From positions 4,252-68,251 of the forward strand of contig MWCH01000001.1 of assembly GCA_002069945.1 (NCBI GenBank): DNA of 64,000 nt, in the 5' to 3' direction. Position numbers and translations under genes: made by a program. How positions within the stretch are numbered: position 1 is the first letter of the stretch; every line of letters begins with the position of its first letter. Shown here one piece after another: positions 3,187 to 51,287 of this stretch. The DNA comes from Microgenomates group bacterium ADurb.Bin219. GTDB taxonomy: Bacteria; Patescibacteriota; Microgenomatia; UM-FILTER-40-11. Under the pieces are notes generated by a model. It had not been told where the DNA came from, searched no databases, and was given only the letters and a program-made list of their open reading frames with translations.

Positions 3187-6100
3187 ATGGAAGAGAAAAA
3201 ATTAAACCAAGAACAGATTGAGGCGGTTCACTTCGGAAAAGGACCGCTTTTGATTATTGCCGGCGCCGGAACGGGGAAGACAACGGTTATTACGGAAAGA
3301 ATCAAACATTTAATTACTTCGGGTTTGGCTAAGCCTTCGGAAATTCTCGCCTTAACTTTTACGGAGAAAGCAGCCAAAGAAATGGAAGAGAGAGTTGATG
3401 TTGCCCTGCCGCTTGGTTATACGCAGATGTGGATTATGACCTTTCACTCTTTCTGTGATCGCGTTTTACGTGACGAGGCGGTTCATATTGGTTTGGACTC
3501 CCGGTATAAATTGATGACCGAAGCGGAATCAATCATGTTTTTGCGAAAAAATCTTTTTAAGTTTGATTTAAATTATTTTTGTCCCTTGGGCAATCCGAAT
3601 AAGTTTATTGATGGGATGCTGAAACATTTCAGCAGGTTGAAGGATGAAGACGTAGCGCCAGAAAATTATTTACTGTATGCTAAAAATTTTCCGGAGAAGT
3701 TAAAAGTTGAAAGTGAAGAAGCAAAGAAATATTGGGAATTGGCGGGAGCATATAAAACTTATGAAGAAATGAAAGTAAAGGAAGGAGTAATGGATTTTGG
3801 CGACTTGATAACCAATACCTTAAAATTGTTCCGCCAAAGACAAAACGTTTTAAAACAATATCAAGACAGATTTAAATATCTTTTGGTTGATGAGTTTCAG
3901 GATACCAATTATGCTCAAAACGAATTGGTTTTGCTTTTGGCAGGAGAAAAGAAAAATTTGACCGTGGTTGCCGATGACGATCAATGTCTACCTTTGGGAA
4001 CTTTAATTTCTACTTCAAAGGGGGATAAAAGAATTGAGGAAATAAAAAAAAAGGAAAAGGTCATAACCGCTGTAGGGAAAGGATATACTTCATTTTCTGT
4101 CGTCACCCATATATTCAAGACAAAAAAGAAGAGTAGATTTTTAAAATTAGTTACCGATAAGGGAACCCAGATAACTCTTACCGATAACCATAAAATGTTT
4201 TGTCTGGTTCCCAATAGAGTTTACGGAAAAAAGAAATATTTTTACATTTATCTTATGGAAAGAGTTGGTTTGGGGTGGAGATTGGGAGTGACTAATGATT
4301 TATGCCAACGCTTAAAACTGGAAAGATCAGCGGATAGAATAATTGCGATAAGGGCTTGTCAGACAGAGGAGGAGGCAAGATATTTTGAAACTTTTTACTC
4401 TTTGGTTTACCACATTCCCACAATATGTTTTAAGCCTCGGCGCCGGACGATAATTAAAGGCGCTTGGATGGAAAAATTGTTCAAGGAAATCGATACCGAA
4501 ACGAACGTTCAAACTTTAGCTAAAGATTTGGGAATTGATTTACGAGGACATCATTTTTGTTTAGGAGCGGTAATAAGAGGCCGGCAAAGAAGAGTAAAAA
4601 TAAATTTAAGAATTTGTAAAAGAAACTATCGGACAAAATATGCCCTCGGCAGATATTTATCTAATCCTTCAGTCCTTCATGAGATAAACATTGAAACTTC
4701 TGACAAAAAAGTGACGAGTAAATTAAAAAAAGAGGGTTATAAAATTCTTAGAGCAAAAAAAGGCGATAGGGTAAGAATTTCTTTTGGAAATTTGGATCGG
4801 GCAGAAGAAGAGATAAACAAATTAATGATTCTTACGGGAGGGATTTTAGACGTGAAGTTTGATGTTGGGAAAAGAAATAAATATGCGAGACAAGCACAAA
4901 CAATGGCGGCAGGAAACGTCTTGCCGGGTTTTTATATTCCGGTGTTAAAGGATTATCAAATAGAGTATGAAATGGTCGTTAAAAGAGAAGAGTTTGTCAA
5001 AGAGAATTTTGTTTATGATTTAGAAGTTGCAAGGACTCATAACTATGTCGCTAACGGTGTAGTTGTCCACAATTCAATTTACAAATGGAGGGGCGCCGCA
5101 ATTTCTAACGTTATCCAATTAAGAAAAAGAATTCCCGAAACGAAAATTGTTGTTTTAACCAAAAACTACCGTTCAAATCAGAAAATTTTGGACAAAGCCT
5201 ATCGGTTAATTCAAAATAATAATCCCGACCGGTTGGAGGTTAAAGAAAAGATTGATAAAAAGTTAGTGGCGATGAGAAATATTAGGGGCGTTGGGGAGGT
5301 TGGGGATGTTAAGTTGATACACGCAGACAGAGTGGAGAATGAGGCGGAAGAAGTAGCGAAGGAAATTAGTTCTTTAATAAACGGTAAACAGTTAGCGGAA
5401 AGCGGAAGCTACCGGTTTAAAGATTTTGCGATTTTGGTGAGGGCCAATAATCACGCGGATGCTTTTATCCGGGCATTGGCCCGCCGGGGAATTCCTTACC
5501 AATTTTTGGGGCCGGGGATGCTTTTCCGCCAACCCGAAGTTAAAGATTTAATCGCTTATCTGGAAGTTTTGTATAATTTTGAAGATTCGGTTGCCCTTTA
5601 CAGAATTTTGGCGATGGATTTTTTCGCTCTTTCCGGACGGGACTTGGCCGCCATAAATAACTTTGCCCGTAAAAATAATCTCTCTTTATTTGAAGCTTGC
5701 GAGAAAATTGTCAACAATAATTCGGTGATAAGCGAAGAGTCAATAGAAATCGTAAGAAAGCTGGTGGAAATGATTCACCGCCATCTGGATTTGGTAAAAA
5801 AGGAAACCGCCGGACAAATTATTTATAATTTTTTGGAAGAAAGCGGGTTACTTAAAGGCCTGACCGAGTATAAATCGGTCGGCGACGAAAGAAAAGCCAA
5901 TAATATCGCCAAATTTTTTGACAAGCTGCGTTCTTATGAAGTTGATCACGAGGACGCTTCGGTAGCGGCAGTGGTTGATTGGATAAATTTATCAATGGAA
6001 TTGGGCGAGTCGCCCCGGGCGGCCGATATTGACTGGACGGAAAACGACGCGGTTAATATTTTAACCGTTCACTCGGCCAAAGGTTTGGAATTTCCGGTTG

Positions 6101-7206
6101 TCTTTTTGGTCAATTTGGTCGGCCAGCGTTTTCCGACCACGGAAAGAAAGGAGCAGATTCCCCTTCCGGAAGAATTGATAAAAGAAATTTTGCCGGAAGG
6201 CGACTATCATCTTCAGGAAGAAAGAAGGCTTTTTTATGTTGGGATGACCAGGGCGAAAGACCGGCTTTATTTGACGGCAGCCGATTATTACGGAGAAGGA
6301 AAAAGAGAAAAGAAAATTTCGCCTTTTGTTTACGAGGTATTGGGAGAAGAGACGGTTAATAACAAACAGTTAACCGTCAACAGTAATCAGATGTCTATCT
6401 TTGATTTCAAACCAGCCCAGGAGTCAAAATCTCCAATTACCAATCAACAATCACCAATTACTTATCTTTCTTATTCTCAGATTGACACTTTTAACATCTG
6501 CCCTTTGCAATACAAATATAAATTTATTTTAAGAATTCCGACACCTCCTTCCGGAGCGGCCGCTTTCGGCAGCGCCATTCACGAAACAATGCGCGATTTT
6601 TACCAAAGGATTTTGGCGGGACAAGACCCGACCCAAGAAGATCTTTTAAAGATTTTGGCGGAAAATTGGGTTTCTTTGGGTTATTCTTCCAAAAACCAGG
6701 AAGAAAAATATAAAAGAGAGGGAGAAAAAATTCTCCGGGCTTTTTATGAAAAAACTTACGACCGAAAGACGAAACCGAAATGCTTGGAGCAGGTTTTTTC
6801 GGTTAAAATTTCTTCCGGGTTAAAAATCGGAGGAAAAATTGACCGAATTGATTTAACGGAACAGGGAGTTGAAGTCATTGACTATAAAACAGGCAGTGCC
6901 TCTTCCAAAAAGGACGTTGCTAAGGATTTGCAATTGACAATTTATGCTTTGGTGGCGACCGACGGCACTTTGGAATATATGGGAATTTTAGACAAAACTC
7001 CCCTGCCGGAAGAAGTTAAAGTTTCCTTTTATTTTTTTGACAACCAGGAAAAAGTATCGGCCGTCAGGACCAGAGAGGAATTGGAACAGGTAAAAAAGGA
7101 GTTAATCGCCAAAGCGGAAGAGATTTACAAAAGTGATTTTTCGCCCTCGCCGGGAAAGATGTGCGATTTTTGCGACTACAGACTTTTATGTGAAGCCTGG
7201 AGATAA
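3187..7206 (+). CDS. UvrD/PcrA-family helicase with a C-terminal Cas4/AddB-like PD-(D/E)XK nuclease domain, interrupted by an intein in helicase motif III
   Basis: Walker A is AGAGTGKTT and motif II is LLVDEFQDTN. Motif III is split as VADDDQ | intein | SIYKWRGAA. The downstream helicase motifs are present. The C-terminus has four cysteines in RecB/Cas4 Fe-S arrangement (NICPLQYKYK ... CDFCDYRLLCEAW) and catalytic-type residues (IDYKTG ... QLTIY). Confidence 0.85.
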   Translation: MEEKKLNQEQIEAVHFGKGPLLIIAGAGTGKTTVITERIKHLITSGLAKPSEILALTFTEKAAKEMEERVDVALPLGYTQMWIMTFHSFCDRVLRDEAVHIGLDSRYKLMTEAESIMFLRKNLFKFDLNYFCPLGNPNKFIDGMLKHFSRLKDEDVAPENYLLYAKNFPEKLKVESEEAKKYWELAGAYKTYEEMKVKEGVMDFGDLITNTLKLFRQRQNVLKQYQDRFKYLLVDEFQDTNYAQNELVLLLAGEKKNLTVVADDDQCLPLGTLISTSKGDKRIEEIKKKEKVITAVGKGYTSFSVVTHIFKTKKKSRFLKLVTDKGTQITLTDNHKMFCLVPNRVYGKKKYFYIYLMERVGLGWRLGVTNDLCQRLKLERSADRIIAIRACQTEEEARYFETFYSLVYHIPTICFKPRRRTIIKGAWMEKLFKEIDTETNVQTLAKDLGIDLRGHHFCLGAVIRGRQRRVKINLRICKRNYRTKYALGRYLSNPSVLHEINIETSDKKVTSKLKKEGYKILRAKKGDRVRISFGNLDRAEEEINKLMILTGGILDVKFDVGKRNKYARQAQTMAAGNVLPGFYIPVLKDYQIEYEMVVKREEFVKENFVYDLEVARTHNYVANGVVVHNSIYKWRGAAISNVIQLRKRIPETKIVVLTKNYRSNQKILDKAYRLIQNNNPDRLEVKEKIDKKLVAMRNIRGVGEVGDVKLIHADRVENEAEEVAKEISSLINGKQLAESGSYRFKDFAILVRANNHADAFIRALARRGIPYQFLGPGMLFRQPEVKDLIAYLEVLYNFEDSVALYRILAMDFFALSGRDLAAINNFARKNNLSLFEACEKIVNNNSVISEESIEIVRKLVEMIHRHLDLVKKETAGQIIYNFLEESGLLKGLTEYKSVGDERKANNIAKFFDKLRSYEVDHEDASVAAVVDWINLSMELGESPRAADIDWTENDAVNILTVHSAKGLEFPVVFLVNLVGQRFPTTERKEQIPLPEELIKEILPEGDYHLQEERRLFYVGMTRAKDRLYLTAADYYGEGKREKKISPFVYEVLGEETVNNKQLTVNSNQMSIFDFKPAQESKSPITNQQSPITYLSYSQIDTFNICPLQYKYKFILRIPTPPSGAAAFGSAIHETMRDFYQRILAGQDPTQEDLLKILAENWVSLGYSSKNQEEKYKREGEKILRAFYEKTYDRKTKPKCLEQVFSVKISSGLKIGGKIDRIDLTEQGVEVIDYKTGSASSKKDVAKDLQLTIYALVATDGTLEYMGILDKTPLPEEVKVSFYFFDNQEKVSAVRTREELEQVKKELIAKAEEIYKSDFSPSPGKMCDFCDYRLLCEAWR
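3985..5073 (+). mobile_element. Intein of 363 aa, probably carrying an endonuclease/linker domain, inserted in UvrD motif III
   Basis: It starts with Cys (CLPLGTLIS, block A) and has block B LTDNHKMF (TxxH). The C-terminal block is FVYDLEVARTHNYVANGVVVHN, followed by the +1 Ser of the extein (SIYKWRGA). Removing it restores the canonical DDDQSIYxWRGA motif. Confidence 0.8.
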
Positions 7207-43206: not shown

Positions 43207-43313
43207 TAGTTTGTGGAAAATTTGTGTTCATTTGGTATTTAGTTTGCTTTTCTTGTATGATTTGGTTAGTTAAGATAGCCAAGATATTAAAAATATCAAA
43301 GGAGGTGAAAAAA

Positions 43314-44060
43314 ATGAGGAAGATAATTTTAACTCTATCTCTATTTCTGCTTCTTTTGGTTACCCTGGTGACCCCATTGGCTCGTGCCCAGAATGAGGTA
43401 GAAAGACCAAGGGGATTGGAAGATAAAGGTCCTTTAACCAAAATCACCTTTATTCATTATAAAAACGGGACGGTCAGACAATATCCCGCAACCAAGCCTA
43501 AGGTTTCCGCTTGCTATACTTTTTTAGCCAGCGGCGCCAAGTGGAAGACTACGGAAGAATATTTAATTAACCCGATTAACCAAGACGGGCTAAGCGGAGA
43601 TTTTATTAAAGACGCTTTTGATAAAGGAACAACTGCCTGGGAGAGCCAGGTCAGCTTTAATATTTTCGGAAGTTCAATTTTAGATTCGGCTTCCGTTTAC
43701 CAGACAGAATCTCCGGACGGGGAAAATGTAGTTGTTTTTGATGATTATCCGGACAACGGAGTTATTGCCATCACTTCGGTTTGGGGATATTTTTCCGGTC
43801 CGCCCAAAACACGCGAGTTAATTGAATGGGATATGCTTTTAAACGAAAGGTTTGTTTGGGGGAATGCCGACGGCAATGAATCGGTAATGGATTTACAAAA
43901 CATTGCCACTCACGAGTTGGGTCACAGCGCCGGCATGGGTGATTTATATACCACCGATTGTAATCTGGAAACAATGTTCGGCTACTCTAGCGAAGGGGAA
44001 ATAATTAAAAGGGATTTAAATTCGGGAGATATCGTGGGAATTAAAAAGCTTTATCCTTAA
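43314..44060 (+). CDS. Secreted metzincin-type zinc metalloprotease (matrixin/snapalysin-like)
   Basis: An RBS-like AGGAGG lies 7 nt upstream. The product has a signal peptide, the motif HELGHSAGMGDLY (HExxHxxGxxD) and a Met-turn-like TMFGY. Confidence 0.65.
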   Translation: MRKIILTLSLFLLLLVTLVTPLARAQNEVERPRGLEDKGPLTKITFIHYKNGTVRQYPATKPKVSACYTFLASGAKWKTTEEYLINPINQDGLSGDFIKDAFDKGTTAWESQVSFNIFGSSILDSASVYQTESPDGENVVVFDDYPDNGVIAITSVWGYFSGPPKTRELIEWDMLLNERFVWGNADGNESVMDLQNIATHELGHSAGMGDLYTTDCNLETMFGYSSEGEIIKRDLNSGDIVGIKKLYP

Positions 44061-45333: not shown

Positions 45334-45432
45334 AGCTTGATTTTGGCGGAAGAAATTATTAAATGTCACGCCATTTGAAAATAATTATGCTTGTCGTTGA
45401 CATTTAAAACCTTTCTTCATATCCTTAATTTA

Positions 45433-48400
45433 ATGATGAAAGTAAATCCTTCGTGGAAAAAAAATCGGAGGACTTCGTTTTTCTTGTTTGTTTTGGTTTG
45501 CTTCTCGTTTATATTTTTGACCTCTTTCCTAAAAAAGAAAATTTTTGTTAATTCCGAATATCGTGGAAAAGAGAGTCCGCCTTTAATCCAGACGGAAACC
45601 CGGGTTTTAGGCGAATATTCTTCAACTAGAATTATTGTTTCAGGCGGCGACGGCTATAGCAGCGGCGGCGTGATTTCTCTGGCCTCAACTGATGAGCCGG
45701 CGGTTTATCTTACCAGCTATGGGTTTTCAGGGGAAGCCGAAATTTCTGTTTATAGAGCTGACGAGGAGAATATTTTAGACTATTTACTTCACGATAATGA
45801 GGGCAAGCAACTTAATAATAAGCCGGATTACGACAAATTGAGCTTAATCCAAACCTTTAAGCAAAATATAATCTCTGGTTACGACAGTAAAAATAAAGTT
45901 TTATTACCACTGGAAGAAAATGGAATTTATCTTTTAGTTGTCAAAACCGCCGGGAAGGAAGAATACGCTTTTGTTTTTCGATCTGATTATGGAGTTTTGG
46001 TCAAGCAGGGCAACAAGCGTTTAATTTTTTGGGCCCAAAGTTTTGAAACTAAAAGAAAAATAAGTGGTGGAAAAATCAAAGTTTATAATCTTTCAAGGAA
46101 GAAGACACTTTTAGAGGAAAGTTTGTTTGACGGCGACGGTATCGCCAGCGCTAATTTAAATCCCGATGCCGACTTGGGAATTGTTGAATTTGAAGGAAAA
46201 TTAGCTTTAGTTCCTATAAATTTGCGCTATATGGGTTCTTCCTGGCGCAGATTTTATTCCAAGGAAACAACCCGATATTTTGTCTTTACCGACAGGACCC
46301 TTTATCAGCCGGGGGATAAAGTTTATTTTAAGGCAATTCTCCGGGATGATGATGATGCCCGTTATTCCCTTCCTTCGGGAACAGCCAATGTAAAAATTTA
46401 TAAGGACTGGGATGAAAAAAACAATGTTCTTTTTGAGAAAAACCTTTCGGTTTCCGATAAAGGTTCGGTTTACGGAGAGTATCAACTCCCGAAAGACGTT
46501 ACCCCCGGCGATTATCAATTAAAAGTTGATACCGGCAAAAAAGCTTCGGGAGATTATTATGATTTTTCTGGCGCGAGTTATATTACTTTCCAAGTACAGT
46601 ATTACCGCAAGCCGGAATATTCTTTGGAGATTGAAACAGATCAAAAAGAATTGATTACCGGCGACAGGCTTTATTTTAAGCTGAAAGGAAGTTATTTTTC
46701 CGGCCAACCGGTTTCCGGGCAAACAATTAAATATTCAATTTTTACTTCCGATTTTTATAACTTTGAATATTATTCTGATTACAGTTTTTTGGATGAAGAC
46801 GGACACGATTGGGGATATTACGGTAATCAAAAAATTAAAGAGGACCAGATAGTCTTGGATAAAAAAGGAGAGGCAAAAGTTGAAGTTGAGACCAAGAACT
46901 TGGCCGGCGACGGCAAGGACAAAATTTTTATAATCAGTGCTGAGATGGATAATGGCTCTGGTAATCCCAGCGTTGCCAAAAAGAATGTTTTAGTTTACGC
47001 GGGGGATTTTAATATTTTCCGGAAAAATTATGGCTATCAAAATAAAGTCAACGAAGAACTTTCCCTTCCTTTAGTTTTAAGGCCTCACCAATTTCAGGAT
47101 ATTTCCAACATTTCTTTAAAAGTTAAAGTCCAAAGGAAAGAATGGGTTAAATATTACGTTCAAGACCAAAAACATCCTCAATACCGAGAGGAAAAAGAGG
47201 ATTATCCGGAGATGAACATCGTTTCGGACAGCCGCGGTGAAGCCGAGATTCGTTTTTTGCCAACCAAAGCAGGATCTTATACTTTTTCGATTGAGGGTGT
47301 TGATAAAAAAGGAAACTTAATTGCCAACAGTTTTTATACTTGGGTTACCAATAAGGACTATTCCTTTTATTCGGAGGCGAACCAAAGTAGGTTAACCATT
47401 AAACAAGATAAAGCAAAATACAAACCTAACGAGAAGGTAAAGCTGGCTATTTTTTCCGAGATTCCCGACAGAGATATCTTTTTATCATTTGAAAGAGGCA
47501 GATTGGACCGCTTCCAAATCATTTCTTTAACCGGCACTAGCGTGGTTTTAGAATCATCTATAAACAGCACAGATTTGCCCAATATTTACGCTGTGGCGAG
47601 CAGTTTTTCCGATTCTTCGTTGGAATCCGCCAATACCAATATTTTGGTTTCAGCAGAAGAGAAAAAAATTAAAGTTGAGCTGACTCCGGATAGAAAAGAA
47701 TACGGTCCGGGAGAAACAGTGGTTCTTAACGTACAGACCAAAGATATTGGCGGTAATCCGGTGGCGGCCGAAGTGGCGGTTTGGGCAATTGATAAGGCCC
47801 TTTTCGAGCTTTTGAATCAGGAGCCGGCAAAAATCTTTGAAAGGTTTTGGGGCGAACGGGGGTATAACTCGCCCACTTCTCACTCTTTGGTGGGGATTGT
47901 TGTTCCCGGCGCGGAAGGTGGAGGCTGCTTTGATGGCGAAACCCCGATTCTTTTGGAGAATGGCAAGGAAAAGAAAATCAGCGAGATTGCGGTTGGTGAG
48001 AATATTTTAACTAGAGATAATAACAATCAAAAATCGGTTAAGGCCAAGGTAAAGGCAATTCACAAGACAAATGTTTCCGGTTACTTAATCATTAATGGGA
48101 ATCTCAAGGTAACCGAAAATCATTATCTGAGAGTTAATGATGATTGGCGGGAAGCTGGCAGCATTCAAAAGGGAGACTGGTTAACGGATATCGGTGGCCA
48201 AAAAACAGTGGTAAGATCCCTGGAATATATTAGGGGAAAATTTATGGTTTATAACTTAGAAATTGAGAAATATCATACCTATTTTGCGGGAGGGGTCTGG
48301 GTTCATAATCAAAAAGGAGATGGAGAGGGCAGAACGGTTTTTAAAGACGCCGCCTATTGGAATCCGACAGTGCAAACAGACAGCTCGGGATTAGCTAAAT

Positions 48401-50514
48401 TAACATTTAAACTTCCAGATAATTTAACTACCTGGGTTATTTCCGGCATTGCTGCTTCTAACGATACCAAGGTCGGTCAGCAGACAACCGAAATTGTCGT
48501 TTCCAAAGATGTTATTGTCCGGCCAATTTTGCCCAATATTGTTCGGCTGGGCGATCGGCTATCGGTTTCCGCTTTAGTTCAGAACTTTACCCAAAGTGAA
48601 CGAAATTTTTTGGTTAATTTAAATTTTGGCGCTGGAGACATTGAAGAGCCAAAAGAAGGCAGTCTTTTGGTTCCGGCTTCCGAGACGCAAACCGTTTCTT
48701 GGTGGATTAATCCAAAAAAAGAAAACGAAGCGGCGGAAATGACCTTTTCGGCGGTAGCCAAAGAAGACGCGAAAGACGAAGATAAATTAACCCTGACTCT
48801 TCCGGTAATGAAGTATGGCTTTAAGGAAAAACGGGCGATGATAGGAGAAGGCAACAAAGATTTCCGCCTTAATCTCTCGCCCGATGTCGACAAAGAAAAA
48901 AGCAAAGTTACTTTATCCCTATCGCCTTCTTTGCACGGATCTTTACTTCCGGCGATGAAATACTTAATTTATTATCCTTACGGCTGTGTTGAACAGATAA
49001 CCAGTACTTTTGTTCCGGCGGTTATTGCCAAGGAAAAGCCGGATTTATTTAAAGGTTATTTAGAAAACGAAGATATTGATAAAAACATTAAGGCAGCGAT
49101 TACTAAGCTGCAAAAAATGCAAAAAATTGATGGCAGTTTTGGTTGGTGGGGGAATCGGGAAAGTTCGGCTTTTGTAACCGCTTACGTGGTTGAATATTTA
49201 AGTCGTGCTCAGAAATTGGGTTTTGATGATCGTGGAATTTTGGGCCGGGCAAAAAATTATTTAATATCGAAAGAGAAAAATTCCACTGACAGTGTTAGCT
49301 TGAGTTATGGCCTAAGCTTTTTAGGGGAAAACAAAGAATTATTATTTGATCTAAATAGGGTCGATTTACCTGCTGATATTTTAGCTTTGGCGGTGATGAG
49401 TAATATTCGCAACGGCAGAACCAACCCGGAAACCAATGGCTTAAATGTTTTAATTTCCTTGGCTAAAGAGCAAGGAGAAGGAATTTATTGGGATTCAGGA
49501 AATAAAGAAACCTTCGGTTCAAACGAAGCTTCAACTGCCCTGGCCGCCCGGGCCTTGATGGTTGCGGGAGCGGATAGAAATTTAGTTACAAAAGCAATCA
49601 GATTTTTACTAAGATCAAGGAAGTTTGATTATTGGGCAAATTCTTTTGCTACGGCCCAGATAGTTCAGTTAATTTCTGATTATGCCACTTCAACCAACGA
49701 AAGTACACCAGAATATTCCTACAGCGTTTCTTTGGATGGAGAGATTATTAAATCGGGTAAAGTTCAGAGTACTCGGGATATTATTAAAGATATTATTATC
49801 TCCGCTTCAAAAATAAAATCCGACGGATCCAATCTTTCCGTTTCCCGGGTAGGTGAAGGCCAGATTTATTCTACGCTACTTGTTGACGAGTGGCACACGG
49901 ATGAGAATGCCGTCTCTCAAAGCAATGGTTTAACCATTAAAAGGGAATATTTGGATAAGAACGGCGATATTTATAAAACTGTAGGGATAGGTGACGAAGT
50001 AACCGTGAGATTGACGGTTTCCGGACTTTCGTCCCCCGAATATTATGGTGTTTTAACCGACGAGCTGCCGGCCGGATTAATTCCGATAAATGACAGTTTT
50101 CTTAACGAACAATATCCCCAATCAAGGAGTTGGTATGCTTATTATGATATGGATACCCAGGTGACAAAAAACGGTGCAGTTTTAAGCCTTTATCGCGTTG
50201 AGCAGGGTTCAAGTGTTTATACGTACCGGGCTCGGGCAGTAGCGGCCGGCAAATTTTTGGTTCCGCCGGCAGAAGCCTCTTTGATGTATTCTCCAGAAAT
50301 TTGGGGAAGGACCGAAGCTGGCAAATTGGAGATTACCGACGTCGGTTCGGTTTATCCCAAGCCTCTTCTCCCCGGAGAAAAATTAGCCGCTAAAAGTCGT
50401 TTTTATCTTTCGACAATTGCGATGGTTTTAATTATTTTCGCCGGCTCAGTTTTGGCCGTTATTCTTAAAAAAAGAAAGCAGCTTCCGCCCCCGCTCCCGC
50501 CAACTGCGGTATGA
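45433..50514 (+). CDS. Bacterial alpha-2-macroglobulin-like large surface protein, N- and C-terminally membrane-anchored, containing an embedded Hint domain
   Basis: The product is about 1690 aa. It has repeated MG-like beta-sandwich segments, the thioester motif YPYGCVEQ and a C-terminal alpha-helical/receptor-binding-like region. A transmembrane segment sits near each terminus. The probable ATG is at 45433; the track ORF begins at a TTG at 45391. Confidence 0.7.
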   Translation: MMKVNPSWKKNRRTSFFLFVLVCFSFIFLTSFLKKKIFVNSEYRGKESPPLIQTETRVLGEYSSTRIIVSGGDGYSSGGVISLASTDEPAVYLTSYGFSGEAEISVYRADEENILDYLLHDNEGKQLNNKPDYDKLSLIQTFKQNIISGYDSKNKVLLPLEENGIYLLVVKTAGKEEYAFVFRSDYGVLVKQGNKRLIFWAQSFETKRKISGGKIKVYNLSRKKTLLEESLFDGDGIASANLNPDADLGIVEFEGKLALVPINLRYMGSSWRRFYSKETTRYFVFTDRTLYQPGDKVYFKAILRDDDDARYSLPSGTANVKIYKDWDEKNNVLFEKNLSVSDKGSVYGEYQLPKDVTPGDYQLKVDTGKKASGDYYDFSGASYITFQVQYYRKPEYSLEIETDQKELITGDRLYFKLKGSYFSGQPVSGQTIKYSIFTSDFYNFEYYSDYSFLDEDGHDWGYYGNQKIKEDQIVLDKKGEAKVEVETKNLAGDGKDKIFIISAEMDNGSGNPSVAKKNVLVYAGDFNIFRKNYGYQNKVNEELSLPLVLRPHQFQDISNISLKVKVQRKEWVKYYVQDQKHPQYREEKEDYPEMNIVSDSRGEAEIRFLPTKAGSYTFSIEGVDKKGNLIANSFYTWVTNKDYSFYSEANQSRLTIKQDKAKYKPNEKVKLAIFSEIPDRDIFLSFERGRLDRFQIISLTGTSVVLESSINSTDLPNIYAVASSFSDSSLESANTNILVSAEEKKIKVELTPDRKEYGPGETVVLNVQTKDIGGNPVAAEVAVWAIDKALFELLNQEPAKIFERFWGERGYNSPTSHSLVGIVVPGAEGGGCFDGETPILLENGKEKKISEIAVGENILTRDNNNQKSVKAKVKAIHKTNVSGYLIINGNLKVTENHYLRVNDDWREAGSIQKGDWLTDIGGQKTVVRSLEYIRGKFMVYNLEIEKYHTYFAGGVWVHNQKGDGEGRTVFKDAAYWNPTVQTDSSGLAKLTFKLPDNLTTWVISGIAASNDTKVGQQTTEIVVSKDVIVRPILPNIVRLGDRLSVSALVQNFTQSERNFLVNLNFGAGDIEEPKEGSLLVPASETQTVSWWINPKKENEAAEMTFSAVAKEDAKDEDKLTLTLPVMKYGFKEKRAMIGEGNKDFRLNLSPDVDKEKSKVTLSLSPSLHGSLLPAMKYLIYYPYGCVEQITSTFVPAVIAKEKPDLFKGYLENEDIDKNIKAAITKLQKMQKIDGSFGWWGNRESSAFVTAYVVEYLSRAQKLGFDDRGILGRAKNYLISKEKNSTDSVSLSYGLSFLGENKELLFDLNRVDLPADILALAVMSNIRNGRTNPETNGLNVLISLAKEQGEGIYWDSGNKETFGSNEASTALAARALMVAGADRNLVTKAIRFLLRSRKFDYWANSFATAQIVQLISDYATSTNESTPEYSYSVSLDGEIIKSGKVQSTRDIIKDIIISASKIKSDGSNLSVSRVGEGQIYSTLLVDEWHTDENAVSQSNGLTIKREYLDKNGDIYKTVGIGDEVTVRLTVSGLSSPEYYGVLTDELPAGLIPINDSFLNEQYPQSRSWYAYYDMDTQVTKNGAVLSLYRVEQGSSVYTYRARAVAAGKFLVPPAEASLMYSPEIWGRTEAGKLEITDVGSVYPKPLLPGEKLAAKSRFYLSTIAMVLIIFAGSVLAVILKKRKQLPPPLPPTAV
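47926..48309 (+). other. Hint (intein/BIL-like) mini-domain of 128 aa inserted in the A2M-like protein
   Basis: It starts CFDGETPILLENGKEKKISEI (block A with Cys1) and has an internal TxxH-like NHYL. It ends YNLEIEKYHTYFAGGVWVHN with a terminal His-Asn. The next residue is Gln rather than Cys, Ser or Thr. Confidence 0.6.
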
Positions 50515-51287
50515 AAAAAAAATTAGTTTTGCTTCTTTCGGCTATTTTATTAGGGTTATCTTTTGTTTTTTTCACTCCGAAATCATCAGAAGCGCCAATG
50601 CCGGTAATTGTCGGCGGGATTATCCCTCATCATTTATTGGCAGAGTTTATTATTGATGATTTTTTTGTCCGATTGAAAAAACAAAATCCGGAATCAATTA
50701 TCCTTATCGGCCCCAATCATGAAGAAAAAGGAGGCAATGTTTTAAGTGCTGAAATTGACTGGGAAACTGAATTCGGCCAATTGAAAAGAGACCAATACTT
50801 GATTGATAGGTTAAAGAAGGGTAATTTTCTTAATATTGACGAAAAGATTCTTAAGGAAGAGCATTCGATTATCGATATTCTTCCTTTTATTAAAAAAAAC
50901 CTGCCTTCGGTTAAAATTACCCCCTTGATATTTAGAGGCGTTTTAAGGCTTTCGGAATTAAAGAAAATCGCGATCAATTTAGCTCAGGAGCTGGACGAAA
51001 AAACTATTATTATCGGGTCAGTTGACTTTTCTCACTATTTAAGCGCTCAGGAGGCCAAATTAAAAGACGAAGAAACAATTGAGGCAATTAAAAATTTTGA
51101 TTTGGAAAGGATATATTCTTTTGGTAATGATCACCTGGATTCACCGGCTTCTTTAATCATTGTCCTTTTGGCCTCGAGAATAAAAGGAAAAGATAATTTG
51201 AAAATTTTAAATCACACTAATTCGGGAATAATTACCAAAAACAGCTTTCCGCCAACGACAAGCTATTTCTCCATTACTTTCAATTAA
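50511..51287 (+). CDS. MEMO1/AmmeMemoRadiSam-system-protein-B-like protein with a signal peptide
   Basis: The segment VIVGGIIPHHLLAEF resembles the Memo His-rich active-site region. Its ATG overlaps the A2M stop codon (ATGA). Confidence 0.5.
   Translation: MKKKLVLLLSAILLGLSFVFFTPKSSEAPMPVIVGGIIPHHLLAEFIIDDFFVRLKKQNPESIILIGPNHEEKGGNVLSAEIDWETEFGQLKRDQYLIDRLKKGNFLNIDEKILKEEHSIIDILPFIKKNLPSVKITPLIFRGVLRLSELKKIAINLAQELDEKTIIIGSVDFSHYLSAQEAKLKDEETIEAIKNFDLERIYSFGNDHLDSPASLIIVLLASRIKGKDNLKILNHTNSGIITKNSFPPTTSYFSITFN

What the first reader, a model, noticed from the sequence alone, without database searches (positions are those of the whole stretch)
47926..48309. A Hint/BIL-like 128-aa domain is embedded inside an alpha-2-macroglobulin-like surface protein, with Gln at the +1 position
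The insert has an intein-type N-terminus (CFDGETPILLENG) and C-terminus (VYNLEIEKYHTYFAGGVWVHN). The downstream residue is Gln, which cannot serve as a splicing nucleophile. This fits bacterial intein-like (BIL) domains, which cleave or rearrange rather than splice. BIL domains occur in secreted proteins. One inside a thioester-containing A2M protease trap, upstream of the CVEQ thioester, might mediate autoproteolytic processing or cross-linking. I do not recall this combination being described.
Basis: partly seen in the sequence, partly recalled or inferred. Interest (0 to 1): 0.65.

Follow-up and report, generated by a model that had tools for sequence, protein, structure and literature searches.

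The report
Self-processing Hint domain in A2M bait
A small intein-like self-cutting domain sits exactly where a bacterial protease-trap protein (alpha-2-macroglobulin) normally has to be cut by an enemy protease to fire, and this arrangement is conserved across well over a hundred lineages of tiny CPR/Patescibacteria, which suggests a built-in trigger that does not appear to have been described.

Summary
Window 47926-48309 encodes a 128-aa Hint domain (Cys1 ... His-Asn, then Gln) inside a 1693-aa membrane-anchored alpha-2-macroglobulin with a CVEQ thioester. This protein is OQA93809.1 of Microgenomates bacterium ADurb.Bin219.

By Pfam the domain is PT-HINT (E 3e-12). Its nearest solved relatives, by sequence and by predicted fold, are bacterial intein-like (BIL) domains: 2LWY and the Tetrahymena BIL2 structures 6Y75/6TMM.

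The domain is not in an ordinary MG-domain loop. It sits in the short, Gly-rich, disordered bait region, at about Gly949/Asp950 of E. coli ECAM.

The arrangement is a conserved family:
- 41 species genomes carry it, nearly all titled as CPR/Patescibacteria.
- Among the 150 best 50%-identity cluster representatives, 133 have the Hint and 17 lack it. The 17 have poly-Gly at the site.
- In all 133, Gly-1, Cys1, block-B His and His-Asn are invariant, and block-B Thr is kept in 132.
- The +1 residue is never Cys or Thr, and is Ser in 3 of 133.
- Lys at +2 occurs in 128 of 133 and is absent from the Hint-less forms.

My best reading (about 0.5) is a domesticated A-type BIL that self-cleaves the bait. 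This would give two-chain maturation or a protease-independent trigger. The rivals are non-canonical ligation (alpha-amine or Lys isopeptide) and transfer to an external nucleophile. Full-text searches found no description. I rate it a new variant of known kinds.

The parts
45433..50514 (+). Whole gene: 1693-aa membrane-anchored alpha-2-macroglobulin (thioester-containing) with an embedded Hint domain. The ORF also opens at a TTG at 45391.
   Evidence: ORF list and translation. Pfam finds MG2, bMG5, A2M_BRD, PT-HINT, A2M, TED and bMG10. The sequence is identical to OQA93809.1. phmmer matches ECAM/SaA2M structures.
45472..45531 (+). N-terminal hydrophobic segment (TSFFLFVLVCFSFIFLTSFL), a signal anchor or signal peptide.
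   Evidence: Read directly from the translation. No predictor was run.
47392..47811 (+). A2M bait-region domain (Pfam A2M_BRD, residues 654-793).
   Evidence: Pfam E 6.8e-13. Confidently folded in the AF2 517-aa model.
47884..47925 (+). N-side bait linker SLVGIVVPGAEGGG, ending in the invariant Gly at -1.
   Evidence: pLDDT is below 50 for model residues 179-189. Gly-1 is present in 133 of 133 representatives. The linker aligns to ECAM ~930-949, within or next to the disordered bait Arg923-Leu942 (PMC4498604).
47926..48309 (+). 128-aa Hint domain of the A-type BIL / PT-HINT class. Catalytic elements: Cys1 (47926-47928), block-B T-E-N-H (48112-48123) and terminal His-Asn (48304-48309).
   Evidence: Conservation over 42 and 133 sequences.
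48310..48333 (+). C-side bait linker QKGDGEGR: Gln+1 (non-nucleophile), Lys+2 (128 of 133 conserved; absent in Hint-less forms) and Arg+8 (invariant in the 42-sequence set and in A5; aligns with ECAM Arg956).
   Evidence: pLDDT is below 50 for model residues 323-330.
48352..48618 (+). A2M (MG) domain starting at the invariant AYWNP.
   Evidence: Pfam PF00207 E 3.5e-20. Invariant columns.
48985..48996 (+). Thioester motif C-V-E-Q (Cys1185) within the TED (Pfam 1175-1283 = 48955-49281).
   Evidence: CxEQ is present in every related locus that extends as far as the TED.
49927..50298 (+). C-terminal MG domain (bMG10), including the conserved Met-Tyr (SLMYSP, 50278-50295) that corresponds to ECAM ESMY.
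   Evidence: Pfam E 2.9e-19. Alignment to ECAM. Near-invariant M-Y-x-P in A5.
50401..50466 (+). C-terminal transmembrane helix followed by KKRK.
   Evidence: Translation. A similar hydrophobic tail occurs in most related loci.
50511..51287 (+). Exported Memo-like protein gene that overlaps the A2M stop codon by 4 nt. It is a conserved downstream partner; any functional link is unproven.
   Evidence: Pfam Memo E 8.5e-25. N-terminal signal-like segment. A homologue lies immediately downstream in 26 related loci.

Best explanation
The segment is an A-type bacterial intein-like (BIL / Pfam PT-HINT) autoprocessing domain. It has been fixed, long ago and largely by vertical descent, in the middle of the short Gly-rich bait region of a surface-anchored, thioester-containing alpha-2-macroglobulin of CPR/Patescibacteria.

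Proposed mechanism:
1. After Sec export and folding, Cys832 carries out an N-to-S acyl shift on the Gly831-Cys832 bond, assisted by the block-B Thr/His.
2. Asn959 cyclises, assisted by His958.
3. Because there is no +1 Cys/Ser/Thr, the canonical trans-esterification cannot happen. The main outcome is therefore cleavage at one or both junctions.
4. The A2M cuts its own bait and releases the 14-kDa Hint. This turns the single chain into an N-terminal fragment (MG1-BRD) and a C-terminal fragment (QKGDGEGR-MG-TED-CTMG).

By analogy with ECAM, cutting the bait untethers the segment carrying the invariant Arg, which aligns with ECAM Arg956. That lets the thioester domain leave its shielded position. 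The Hint would thus act as a built-in, protease-independent maturation or trigger device. It would be comparable to furin processing plus C3a (ANA) removal in complement C3/C4, or to the 'cut' form of insect TEP1.

What is shown: the identity of the domain, its position, the conservation of the catalytic residues, the absence of a +1 nucleophile, and the family distribution. What is inferred: that processing occurs, that cleavage dominates over ligation, and that cleavage activates or matures the trap.
For: Domain identity:
- Pfam PT-HINT passes its gathering score, and intein N- and C-terminal TIGRFAMs match.
- The best PDB sequence hit is the C. thermocellum BIL 2LWY.
- The AF2 model has pLDDT 89.5, with top Foldseek hits BIL2 6Y75/6TMM and 2LWY at TM about 0.8.

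Position:
- The Hint is a clean insertion between '...AEGGG' and 'QKG..R..F.DTAYWNP'.
- Hint-less orthologues have AEKGGGGG(G)D.R at that spot.
- The junction aligns to ECAM Gly949|Asp950. That lies between the disordered bait Arg923-Leu942 and Arg956/Gly958/Asn963, which rebind the C-terminal MG domain after cleavage (PMC4498604).
- In the 517-aa AF2 model the Hint is confident, but both linkers have pLDDT below 50.

Selection on catalysis:
- In 133 representatives of 50%-identity clusters, Gly-1, Cys1, His66, His127 and Asn128 are 133/133 and Thr63 is 132/133. The same pattern holds in 41 species genomes, all with intact ORFs.
- The Hint is more conserved than its host (Kimura distance 1.00 against 1.49). 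Its similarity tracks that of the host: Mantel r 0.23 with 0 of 999 permutations reaching it, and the Hint nearest neighbour falls within the top-5 host neighbours in 37 of 111 cases against about 5 expected.
- There is no compositional anomaly at the insert.

Against canonical splicing:
- The +1 residue is Q/D/E/G/K/N/A/L, never Cys or Thr, and Ser in only 3 of 133.
- BIL domains 'produce predominantly cleaved products', and a single mutation turns them into efficient splicers (PMC7664689). A +1 nucleophile is therefore easy to evolve, yet it has not been selected here.
- A canonical intein in the same window (helicase gene, 3985-5073) does have +1 Ser.

Subfamily habit:
- The nearest non-A2M relatives mostly carry the Hint near the C-terminus, often after GGG|CF. 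It is followed by a short tail or, in some, by a domain with a Pfam toxin-family hit. Only cleavage or transfer makes sense there. HINT is described as an autoproteolytic release module in polymorphic toxins (PMC3239186).

The trap is intact:
- The CxEQ thioester is kept in every related locus that extends as far as the TED.
- The protein has only three cysteines: one in the N-terminal hydrophobic segment, Hint Cys1, and the thioester Cys. The modal count among relatives is two.
Against: There is no experimental evidence of processing for any member.

A-type BIL domains can also ligate their flanks without a nucleophilic side chain. This rests on the titles of Dassa 2004 and Aranko 2013, as listed in PMC7765530 and PMC7664689. 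The best structural match, BIL2, forms a Lys isopeptide (PMC8616854).

The near-invariant Lys at +2 is present only when the Hint is present. That is what one would expect if ligation, not plain cleavage, were the selected outcome.

Hint-less orthologues show that an uninterrupted poly-Gly bait is a working state for this protein family. Unregulated self-cleavage would fire and waste the thioester, and I found no regulatory feature; the Hint has no second Cys.

The ECAM mapping rests on a low-identity alignment and is accurate only to within a few residues.
Confidence: 0.5

Rival explanations
1. Non-canonical splicing used only for maturation. The Hint removes itself and re-joins the two halves of the bait. 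It would do this either by attack of the alpha-amine freed by Asn cyclisation on the Gly831 thioester (A-type BIL ligation) or by attack of the Lys961 (+2) epsilon-amine, giving a Gly831-Lys961 isopeptide bridge as in Tetrahymena BUBL BIL2. The mature protein would then be an ordinary protease-triggered A2M with an intact, possibly branched, bait.
For: - Lys+2 is conserved in 128 of 133 Hint-containing proteins and in 42 of 42 of the genome-derived set. No Lys lies between the poly-Gly and the invariant Arg in the Hint-less forms whose junction was read.
- Gly at -1 is invariant, as at the C-terminus of ubiquitin-like domains.
[quoted passage not shown] - The ligated product AEGGG-QKGDGEGR would resemble the AEKGGGGGGDGGR bait of Hint-less orthologues.
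- An intact bait is evidently the functional state in those orthologues.
Against: - BIL domains are reported to give mainly cleaved products (PMC7664689).
- If efficient re-ligation were the selected outcome, a +1 Ser/Thr/Cys is one mutation away. Yet it is present in only 3 of 133.
- There is no homing endonuclease or other sign of selfish mobility that would explain persistence of a merely tolerated passenger. The Hint is more conserved than the host.
- Lys close to the C-junction is also common in relatives that have only a short tail after the Hint and no C-terminal domain to ligate.
Confidence: 0.3
2. Hedgehog-like transfer, a second warhead. The Gly831~Cys832 thioester is resolved by an external nucleophile: a lysine or other amine on a target protein or host-cell surface, a lipid, or a cell-wall component. 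This would covalently attach the N-terminal MG1-BRD half, while Asn cyclisation frees the TED-bearing half. The protein would then carry two independent acyl-transfer chemistries.
For: - The invariant G|CF junction is the same tripeptide as the Hedgehog autoprocessing site (my recollection of the Hedgehog literature) and resembles the GG|C of BUBL.
- BIL2 conjugates its N-extein to lysines of other proteins such as Ras (PMC8616854).
- Close relatives have a Hedgehog-like architecture of N-terminal secreted domain, then GGG|C-Hint, then a short tail.
- CPR bacteria are inferred episymbionts that need attachment to host cells, and A2M-domain proteins are noted on the surface of Vampirococcus (PMC8080830).
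Against: - There is no sterol- or adduct-recognition region after the Hint.
- No candidate acceptor is known.
- In the window type both halves already carry their own membrane anchors.
- The idea is entirely inferential.
Confidence: 0.12
3. Catalytically silent insert. The Hint no longer processes itself and serves only as a folded plug or as protease bait within the bait region.
For: A folded domain on two flexible linkers could shield or present the bait. Extracellular Cys1 could be oxidised.
Against: Absolute conservation of Cys1, block-B His, His-Asn and Gly-1 across 133 divergent representatives, with mean pairwise identity in the Hint of only about 44%, is not expected for a structural spacer. 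Cys is otherwise almost absent from these proteins.
Confidence: 0.05
4. Standard (class 1) mini-intein, a selfish element that splices canonically.
For: Intein N- and C-terminal motif models match weakly. Mini-inteins are the next-best structural matches.
Against: - The +1 residue is Gln here and is never Cys or Thr in 133 relatives.
- The insertion is in the most variable, non-essential part of a surface protein, not in a conserved active-site motif.
- There is no endonuclease.
- It contrasts with the genuine intein at 3985-5073 in the same window (+1 Ser, 363 aa, in the conserved DDDQ|SIYKWRGA segment of the helicase).
Confidence: 0.02

Closest known systems
A-type bacterial intein-like (BIL) domains (Amitai 2003; Dassa 2004; C. 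thermocellum BIL structure 2LWY, Aranko 2013)
   Same: - About 130 aa Hint fold with no endonuclease.
- Cys1, block-B TxxH and C-terminal His-Asn, followed by a non-nucleophilic residue.
- Located in a variable region of a secreted or surface bacterial protein.
- Best PDB sequence hit (E 2.4e-6) and TM about 0.8.
   Different: The host and the site differ. Known BILs are described in FhaB-like, RTX-like and other hypervariable proteins (PMC7765530). Here the BIL occupies the functional trigger site (the bait) of a thioester A2M. It is strictly conserved there across a phylum-scale radiation, with invariant Gly-1 and near-invariant Lys+2.
Pfam PF07591 PT-HINT (pretoxin HINT of polymorphic toxins)
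   Same: It is the best-scoring Pfam family and lies above the gathering cut-off. It is proposed as an autoproteolytic release module (PMC3239186). Some sequence relatives retrieved here also carry Pfam toxin-family hits after the Hint.
   Different: No toxin domain follows the Hint. What lies downstream is the MG-TED-CTMG half of the A2M itself.
BIL2 of the Tetrahymena thermophila BUBL1 polyubiquitin-like locus (6Y75/6TMM)
   Same: It is the top structural match (TM 0.81). It has Gly at -1, no +1 nucleophile, and a lysine in the C-extein. It yields an isopeptide product (PMC8616854).
   Different: It is eukaryotic and flanked by ubiquitin-like domains. Sequence identity is only about 23%. Whether Lys961 plays the same role here is untested.
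Bacterial alpha-2-macroglobulins ECAM/YfhM and Salmonella SaA2M (4RTD, 4ZIQ, 5A42, 4U48)
   Same: MG-domain ring, BRD, CxEQ thioester in a TED, and a C-terminal MG domain with a conserved Met-Tyr. It shares the overall order and sequence homology.
   Different: - ECAM is a periplasmic lipoprotein paired with PBP1C, and its roughly 20-aa bait is cut by foreign proteases.
- The CPR protein is anchored by hydrophobic segments at its ends rather than by a lipid.
- It is paired with an exported Memo-like gene in 26 of 42 related loci.
- It has a very short Gly-rich bait interrupted by a self-processing domain.
Complement C3/C4/C5 (ANA domain and furin linker) and Anopheles TEP1 'cut' form
   Same: From established structural knowledge, these proteins carry an inserted element or processing site at the same topological place as the A2M bait. 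Removing or cutting it yields a two-chain, activatable thioester protein. The 517-aa model matches these structures.
   Different: Processing there is done by external proteases (furin, convertases). Here the inserted domain would excise itself.

Membership tests
A-type BIL domain (HINT superfamily) | Hint (hedgehog/intein) fold | tested here: met
   AF2 pLDDT 89.5. Foldseek top hits are BIL2 6Y75/6TMM and BIL 2LWY (TM 0.79-0.84), followed by mini-inteins and hedgehog 1AT0.
A-type BIL domain (HINT superfamily) | N-terminal nucleophile (Cys1) and block-B Thr-x-x-His | tested here: met
   Cys832 and T894-E-N-H897. Cys1 is 133/133, Thr 132/133 and His 133/133.
A-type BIL domain (HINT superfamily) | C-terminal His-Asn | tested here: met
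   H958-N959, invariant in 133 of 133.
A-type BIL domain (HINT superfamily) | No Cys/Ser/Thr at +1 | tested here: met
   Gln960. The family distribution is Q52 D43 E14 G14 K3 S3 N2 L1 A1.
A-type BIL domain (HINT superfamily) | Mini size with no homing endonuclease; located in a variable region of a secreted, non-housekeeping protein | tested here: met
   128 aa. It lies in the bait linker of a surface A2M, which is poly-Gly in Hint-less orthologues.
A-type BIL domain (HINT superfamily) | Autocatalytic N- and/or C-terminal cleavage (with some ligation) | not testable with these tools
   Inferred only, from conservation of the catalytic residues.
Pfam PF07591 PT-HINT | Score above the curated gathering threshold | tested here: met
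   47.4 bits for the domain alone (42.6 in the whole protein) against a cut-off of 27.7.
Pfam PF07591 PT-HINT | Located immediately N-terminal to a polymorphic toxin domain | tested here: not met
   Downstream are the A2M, TED and bMG10 domains. No toxin domain is present.
Canonical class 1 intein | A +1 Cys/Ser/Thr nucleophile for trans-esterification | tested here: not met
   Gln here. There are 0 Cys/Thr and 3 Ser among 133. The genuine intein at 3985-5073 has +1 Ser.
Canonical class 1 intein | Insertion in a conserved functional motif of a housekeeping protein; sporadic, mobile distribution | tested here: not met
   It sits in the variable bait linker. There is a signal of co-divergence with the host and no compositional anomaly.
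B-type BIL / Hog-Hint / Vint | Lack of C-terminal His-Asn (B-type); a sterol/adduct recognition region after the Hint (Hog); Vint-specific C-terminal half | tested here: not met
   His-Asn is present. There is no extra region between Asn959 and the MG domain. The Pfam Vint and Hint (Hog) models match only the N-terminal ~75 residues, and the Hog 'Hint' model falls below its cut-off.
Bacterial alpha-2-macroglobulin (thioester type) | MG domains, bait-region domain, TED with CxEQ, and C-terminal MG10 | tested here: met
   Pfam finds MG2, bMG5, A2M_BRD, A2M, TED_complement and bMG10 above their cut-offs. CVEQ is at 1185-1188. phmmer to ECAM/SaA2M gives E about 1e-29 to 1e-24.
Bacterial alpha-2-macroglobulin (thioester type) | Protease-cleavable bait that triggers trapping, and formation of the thioester | not testable with these tools
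   The bait position is mapped by alignment only. The function has not been assayed.
Bacterial alpha-2-macroglobulin (thioester type) | Lipoprotein anchoring and pairing with PBP1C (YfhM type) or the yfaS operon | tested here: not met
   Hydrophobic N- and C-terminal segments are present instead, and no canonical lipobox is seen in the N-terminal sequence. The neighbours are RF-1-domain, Memo-like and HAD genes, with no PBP among the neighbouring genes scanned.

The most novel reading that the evidence does not exclude
The Hint is a domesticated chemical module that makes these CPR macroglobulins protease-independent, 'two-thioester' devices. Under this reading the Gly831~Cys832 thioester is resolved by a lysine. 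That lysine could be the co-conserved Lys+2, giving an isopeptide-bridged bait. It could instead be a lysine or amine on a host-cell surface protein, giving covalent attachment. Asn cyclisation would simultaneously cut the bait and unleash the classical TED thioester. The protein would then work as a self-firing covalent adhesin or trap used by episymbiotic Patescibacteria. It would be a bacterial analogue of C3 tick-over, built from an intein relative.
Probability: 0.2. Interest if true: 0.85.

Novelty: new variant of a known kind. Interest (0 to 1): 0.62.

Why it matters
All known A2M/complement/TEP proteins depend on an external protease to cut the bait (or ANA/linker) region before the thioester can act. 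A self-processing domain fixed at exactly that spot would be the first built-in trigger or maturation device in this superfamily. Its catalytic residues are conserved across more than 130 divergent clusters.

It would also give BIL domains a defined physiological job, which has stayed vague since their description in 2003. It points to surface chemistry that may matter for how CPR/Patescibacteria deal with proteases or attach to hosts.

In practical terms, it offers a natural, compact, extracellularly active Hint with Gly at -1 and a non-nucleophilic +1 residue. It also offers a simple test system, the MG-Hint-MG fragment, for cleavage, alpha-amine ligation and Lys-isopeptide ligation.

Tried and rejected
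- **Hint-only homologue search.** It returned only 2 proteins because of the word prefilter. I replaced it with a profile search and the exhaustive representative search.
- **First regex classification of Hint+/Hint-.** It mislabelled many Hint-containing proteins. I replaced it with hmmalign to the A3 profile.
- **Hint- set in the short flank alignment.** It came out empty because of trimming, so I redid the analysis on full-length alignments.
- **NJ tree for gains and losses.** Distances are near saturation. The tree scatters the Hint-less forms (13 Fitch changes) and I do not trust it. The one presence/absence difference I trust between near relatives is the Hint-less P0236, whose nearest relatives are Hint+ (P0180 at 50% and P0200 at 45%, against 38% or less to other Hint-less forms). 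This suggests at least two gain or loss events.
- **Recent horizontal insertion.** There is no GC or skew anomaly at 47926-48309 and no endonuclease, so I rejected it.
- **Rfam scan of the window.** It found nothing.
- **afdb50 fold search.** The library was not available, so I could not list UniProt/AFDB entries with the same architecture.
- **Redox-trap idea.** A second Cys pairing with Cys1 is ruled out because the Hint has only Cys1 and the whole protein has only 3 Cys.
- **Literature.** Searches for BIL/intein/Hint with macroglobulin, bait region or CPR gave no relevant paper. Subscription-only papers are not covered.
- **L001 as evidence of a 'split' gene.** Rejected. P0003, P0004 and P0005 start inside the Hint. 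For P0005 the contig (L001) shows a decayed or misassembled gene. P0004 is identical over the shared region to the intact ORF in L006.


Full report
**1. The observation**

The next residue is Gln. The segment lies in ORF 45391..50514.

The 1693-aa product from the ATG at 45433 is identical to NCBI OQA93809.1/HNP89111.1, annotated only as 'MG2 domain protein [Microgenomates group bacterium ADurb.Bin219]'. In that numbering the insert is residues 832-959.

Pfam finds MG2 (282-370), bMG5, A2M_BRD (654-793), PT-HINT (847-960), A2M (974-1062), TED (1175-1283) and bMG10 (1499-1622). CVEQ is at 1185-1188. There are hydrophobic segments at both ends, residues 14-33 and 1657-1678.

The neighbourhood is ordinary chromosome: HrcA, DnaK, DnaJ, a secreted matrixin-like peptidase, an RF-1-domain protein, then the A2M, a Memo-like gene and a HAD hydrolase.

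**2. It is a Hint domain of the BIL kind**

- The isolated 128 aa score 47.4 bits (E 2.9e-12) on PT-HINT PF07591, against a cut-off of 27.7. They also match the intein N- and C-terminal TIGRFAM models.
- Against all PDB sequences the best hit is 2LWY, the C. thermocellum 'bacterial intein-like domain' (E 2.4e-6). RecA, DnaX and other mini-inteins follow.
- An AlphaFold2 model of the domain with 10 flanking residues on each side has mean pLDDT 89.5 and is all-beta.
- Foldseek against the PDB ranks the BIL2 domain of the Tetrahymena BUBL1 locus first (6Y75/6TMM, TM 0.78-0.81). The BIL 2LWY comes next (TM 0.79/0.84), then mini-inteins and the hedgehog autoprocessing domain.

**3. Where it sits**

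Alignment with relatives shows a clean insertion between '...HSLxGIxxxxAEGGG' and 'QKGxxxR..FKDTAYWNP'. Close orthologues without the insert read '...AEKGGGGGGDGGRSIFKDTAYWNP' and similar.

I took E. coli YfhM/ECAM from the K-12 genome and aligned it with the window protein:
- With the Hint in place, the match stops at window residue 827 = ECAM 939.
- With the Hint removed in silico, the junction Gly831|Gln960 falls at ECAM Gly949|Asp950.

In the protease-cleaved ECAM crystal structure, Arg923-Leu942 of the bait are disordered. Arg956, Gly958 and Asn963 of the 'cleaved bait region' rebind the C-terminal MG domain and displace the thioester domain (PMC4498604). The invariant Arg eight residues after the Hint aligns with ECAM Arg956. 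The Met-Tyr of the ECAM ESMY motif is conserved as SLMY.

A second AlphaFold2 model covers 517 residues, from the BRD through the Hint to the next MG domains. Its pLDDT is 88.1. The flanking beta-sandwich domains and the Hint (model residues 193-320) are confident, but residues 179-189 and 323-330 are below 50. Foldseek matches its flanks to ECAM, SaA2M, human A2M/A2ML1, CD109, TEP1 and C3/C4/C5.

So the Hint hangs on two short flexible linkers in the middle of the bait region. The ECAM mapping rests on a low-identity alignment and is good only to a few residues. It is, however, bracketed by well-aligned blocks on both sides.

**4. It is a family, not an accident**

A scan of one genome per species found 41 genomes encoding the same A2M-Hint junction over the full 260-aa query. 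Identity ranged from 42% to 59%. Nearly all informative titles are CPR/Patescibacteria:
- Daviesbacteria, Woesebacteria, Gottesmanbacteria, Shapirobacteria and the Microgenomates group;
- WWE3, Moraniibacteriota, Paceibacterota and Saccharibacteria.

Several automated TPA MAG titles read 'uncultured Gammaproteobacteria', 'Bdellovibrionales' or similar. I suspect these are mislabelled, but I did not check.

All 41 reading frames are intact through the region. Most loci hold a ~1640-1790-aa ORF with GCxEQ, most of them with a C-terminal hydrophobic tail. A Gottesman/Shapiro-type subgroup of ~2150-2220 aa has YCTEQ or DCVEQ and only an N-terminal anchor.

The exhaustive search of 1.84 billion cluster representatives gave 861 proteins at E<=1e-30. 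Of the best 150 listed (all E <= 1.5e-65), 133 contain the Hint and 17 lack it. Median full lengths are 1701.5 and 1569 aa.

**5. What is conserved**

| Position | Conservation in 133 Hint-containing representatives |
|---|---|
| Gly-1 | 133/133 |
| Cys1 | 133/133 |
| Phe2 | 131/133 |
| Block-B Thr | 132/133 |
| Block-B His | 133/133 |
| Asn110 | 132/133 |
| His127 | 133/133 |
| Asn128 | 133/133 |
| +1 | Q52 D43 E14 G14 K3 S3 N2 L1 A1 (never Cys or Thr) |
| +2 | Lys 128/133 |

The independent set of 42 genome-derived sequences shows the same pattern, with Lys+2 in 42 of 42. The second refutation condition, homologues with Cys/Ser/Thr at +1, is therefore also not met.

None of the Hint-less orthologues whose junction was read has a Lys between the poly-Gly and the invariant Arg. 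Most of them instead have AEK before the poly-Gly. Lys+2 is therefore co-conserved with the Hint.

The Hint is more conserved than the rest of the protein (mean Kimura distance 1.00 against 1.49). Its pairwise similarities correlate with those of the host:
- Mantel r is 0.23, with 0 of 999 permutations as high.
- The Hint nearest neighbour is among the top-5 host neighbours in 37 of 111 cases, against about 5 expected.

There is no GC or skew anomaly over the insert.

The protein has only three cysteines: Cys23 in the N-terminal hydrophobic segment, Hint Cys1, and the thioester Cys. Two is the modal count among relatives.

Presence and absence are not cleanly separated on a poorly resolved NJ tree. 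The one case I trust is the Hint-less P0236. Its nearest relatives are Hint+ (50% and 45% identity, against 38% or less to other Hint-less forms). This suggests at least two gain or loss events.

**6. Mechanism**

The conserved set is exactly what is needed for the N-to-S acyl shift at Gly|Cys and for Asn cyclisation at Asn|Gln: Cys1, Thr and His of block B, the penultimate His and the terminal Asn. The residue needed to couple the two reactions, +1 Cys/Ser/Thr, is absent.

Published work states that BIL domains lacking the +1 nucleophile 'produce predominantly cleaved products'. It also states that a single mutation converts them into efficient splicers (PMC7664689; see also PMC7765530). A nucleophile is thus one mutation away, yet it appears in only 3 of 133 lineages. 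I infer that efficient canonical splicing is not the selected outcome.

The nearest non-A2M relatives mostly carry this Hint near the C-terminus, often after GGG|CF. It is followed by a short tail or, in some, by a domain with a Pfam toxin-family hit. There, only cleavage or transfer is meaningful. HINT domains in polymorphic toxins are regarded as autoproteolytic release modules (PMC3239186).

My best-supported reading (about 0.5) is that the domain cuts the bait from within. The ECAM mechanism then predicts untethering of the Arg-bearing segment and release of the thioester domain.

This could serve as two-chain maturation. Known analogues, from my knowledge of the literature, are furin-processed C3/C4 and the 'cut' form of TEP1. 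It could also serve as a protease-independent trigger, with the Hint in the topological place of the complement ANA domain.

The main weakness is timing. Unregulated self-cleavage would discharge the trap, and I found no regulatory feature.

**7. Rivals**

(a) Non-canonical ligation (about 0.3).
- The best structural match, BIL2, joins its N-extein to a lysine epsilon-amine of the C-extein (PMC8616854).
- Invariant Gly-1 and the Hint-specific Lys+2 fit this model well.
- The spliced bait would resemble the Hint-less one.

(b) Hedgehog/BUBL-like transfer of the N-terminal half to an external nucleophile (about 0.12).

(c) A silent structural plug (about 0.05). This is hard to reconcile with the catalytic conservation.

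(d) A canonical intein (about 0.02). The same window supplies a control. The UvrD/AddA-type helicase-nuclease at 3187-7206 carries a 363-aa intein (3985-5073) in the conserved segment DDDQ|C...HN|SIYKWRGA, with +1 Ser.

**8. Comparison and novelty**

As a domain, the insert meets every testable criterion of an A-type BIL and is a Pfam PT-HINT member. It fails the class 1 intein criteria and the PT-HINT context criterion, because no toxin follows it.

As a host, the protein meets the sequence criteria for a thioester bacterial A2M. It differs from YfhM/ECAM in three ways:
- anchoring, by hydrophobic end segments rather than a lipid;
- gene partner, an exported Memo-like protein in 26 related loci rather than PBP1C;
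- a minimal Gly-rich bait.

Full-text searches combining BIL, intein or Hint with macroglobulin, bait region or CPR returned nothing relevant. The only CPR paper that discusses A2M-domain surface proteins treats them as presumed protease defence (PMC8080830). The databases name these proteins 'MG2 domain protein', 'YfaS' or 'hypothetical'. The searches do not cover subscription-only literature.

I rate it a new variant of known kinds: a known autoprocessing module fixed at the trigger site of a known trap.

**9. Verdict**

- Identity and position of the domain: confidence about 0.95.
- Autoprocessing occurs: about 0.85.
- Cleavage rather than ligation is the main outcome: about 0.5.
- Interest: 0.62.

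Noticed in passing
window 3187-7206 (+); intein at 3985-5073: A UvrD/AddA-type helicase-nuclease (UvrD-helicase, UvrD_C and PD-(D/E)XK domains) carries a canonical 363-aa intein: ...VVADDDQ|CLPLGTLIST...NGVVVHN|SIYKWRGA. It has Cys1, His-Asn and +1 Ser, and it sits in a conserved helicase segment. It is a useful in-genome contrast to the A2M Hint. I did not examine whether its middle part is a homing endonuclease.
   Followed up: partly
window 50511-51287 (+): The Memo-like (PF01875) gene has an N-terminal signal-like segment (MKKKLVLLLSAILLGLSFVFF...) and overlaps the A2M stop codon by 4 nt (ATGA). A homologue lies immediately downstream of the A2M-Hint gene in 26 of the related loci (25 of the 41 genome loci, plus L001). 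This is a conserved, exported A2M-Memo gene pair in CPR bacteria whose meaning is unknown. Other bacteria pair A2M with PBP1C.
   Followed up: partly
window 43224-44060 (+): This is a secreted matrixin-like zinc peptidase (Pfam Peptidase_M10; HELGH motif; signal peptide ...LVTPLARA) two genes upstream of the A2M. A homologue lies upstream of the A2M in only one related locus (L014), so the link is probably coincidental.
   Followed up: partly
L001 6400-10331 (Logan contig SRR22387954_545174): The orthologous A2M gene is broken into four called ORFs. It has frame changes, loss of most MG domains, and an internal deletion that removes the bait and the first ~95 residues of the Hint. The Memo gene still follows it. 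This is either a decaying pseudogene or an assembly artefact.
   Followed up: partly
L005, L007, L008, L014, L016, L020, L022, L025, L027, L028, L030-L032, L034, L038, L040 (record titles): Many TPA_asm MAGs that carry this CPR-type A2M-Hint gene are titled 'uncultured Gammaproteobacteria', 'Pseudomonadales' or 'Bdellovibrionales'. Given the gene content and its similarity to Daviesbacteria/Microgenomates loci, these labels look wrong. I did not verify this.
   Followed up: no
proteins P0011, P0014, P0015, P0029, P0030, P0039, P0045, P0049: The closest non-A2M relatives of this Hint have a Hedgehog-like layout. A secreted or pilin-like N-terminal region is followed, sometimes via a Gly run, by |CF-Hint-HN| and then a tail of only 3-30 residues (85 in P0014) that often starts with Lys. 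This looks like an uncharacterised group of self-cleaving or self-transferring surface proteins.
   Followed up: partly
window 45433-50511 (protein) and relatives P0094-P0238: These ~1700-aa surface proteins are almost free of cysteine. The window protein has three: Cys23 in the N-terminal hydrophobic segment, Hint Cys1, and the thioester Cys1185. The modal count in relatives is two.
   Followed up: yes
L036-L040 (Gottesmanbacteria/Shapirobacteria-type loci): This subgroup of ~2150-2220-aa A2M-Hint proteins has a long extra N-terminal region, YCTEQ or DCVEQ in place of GCVEQ, a longer bait linker (…NANTNLGxKGGSGGG|C), and no C-terminal anchor. After Hint self-cleavage, the thioester-bearing half would no longer be tethered to the cell.
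   Followed up: partly
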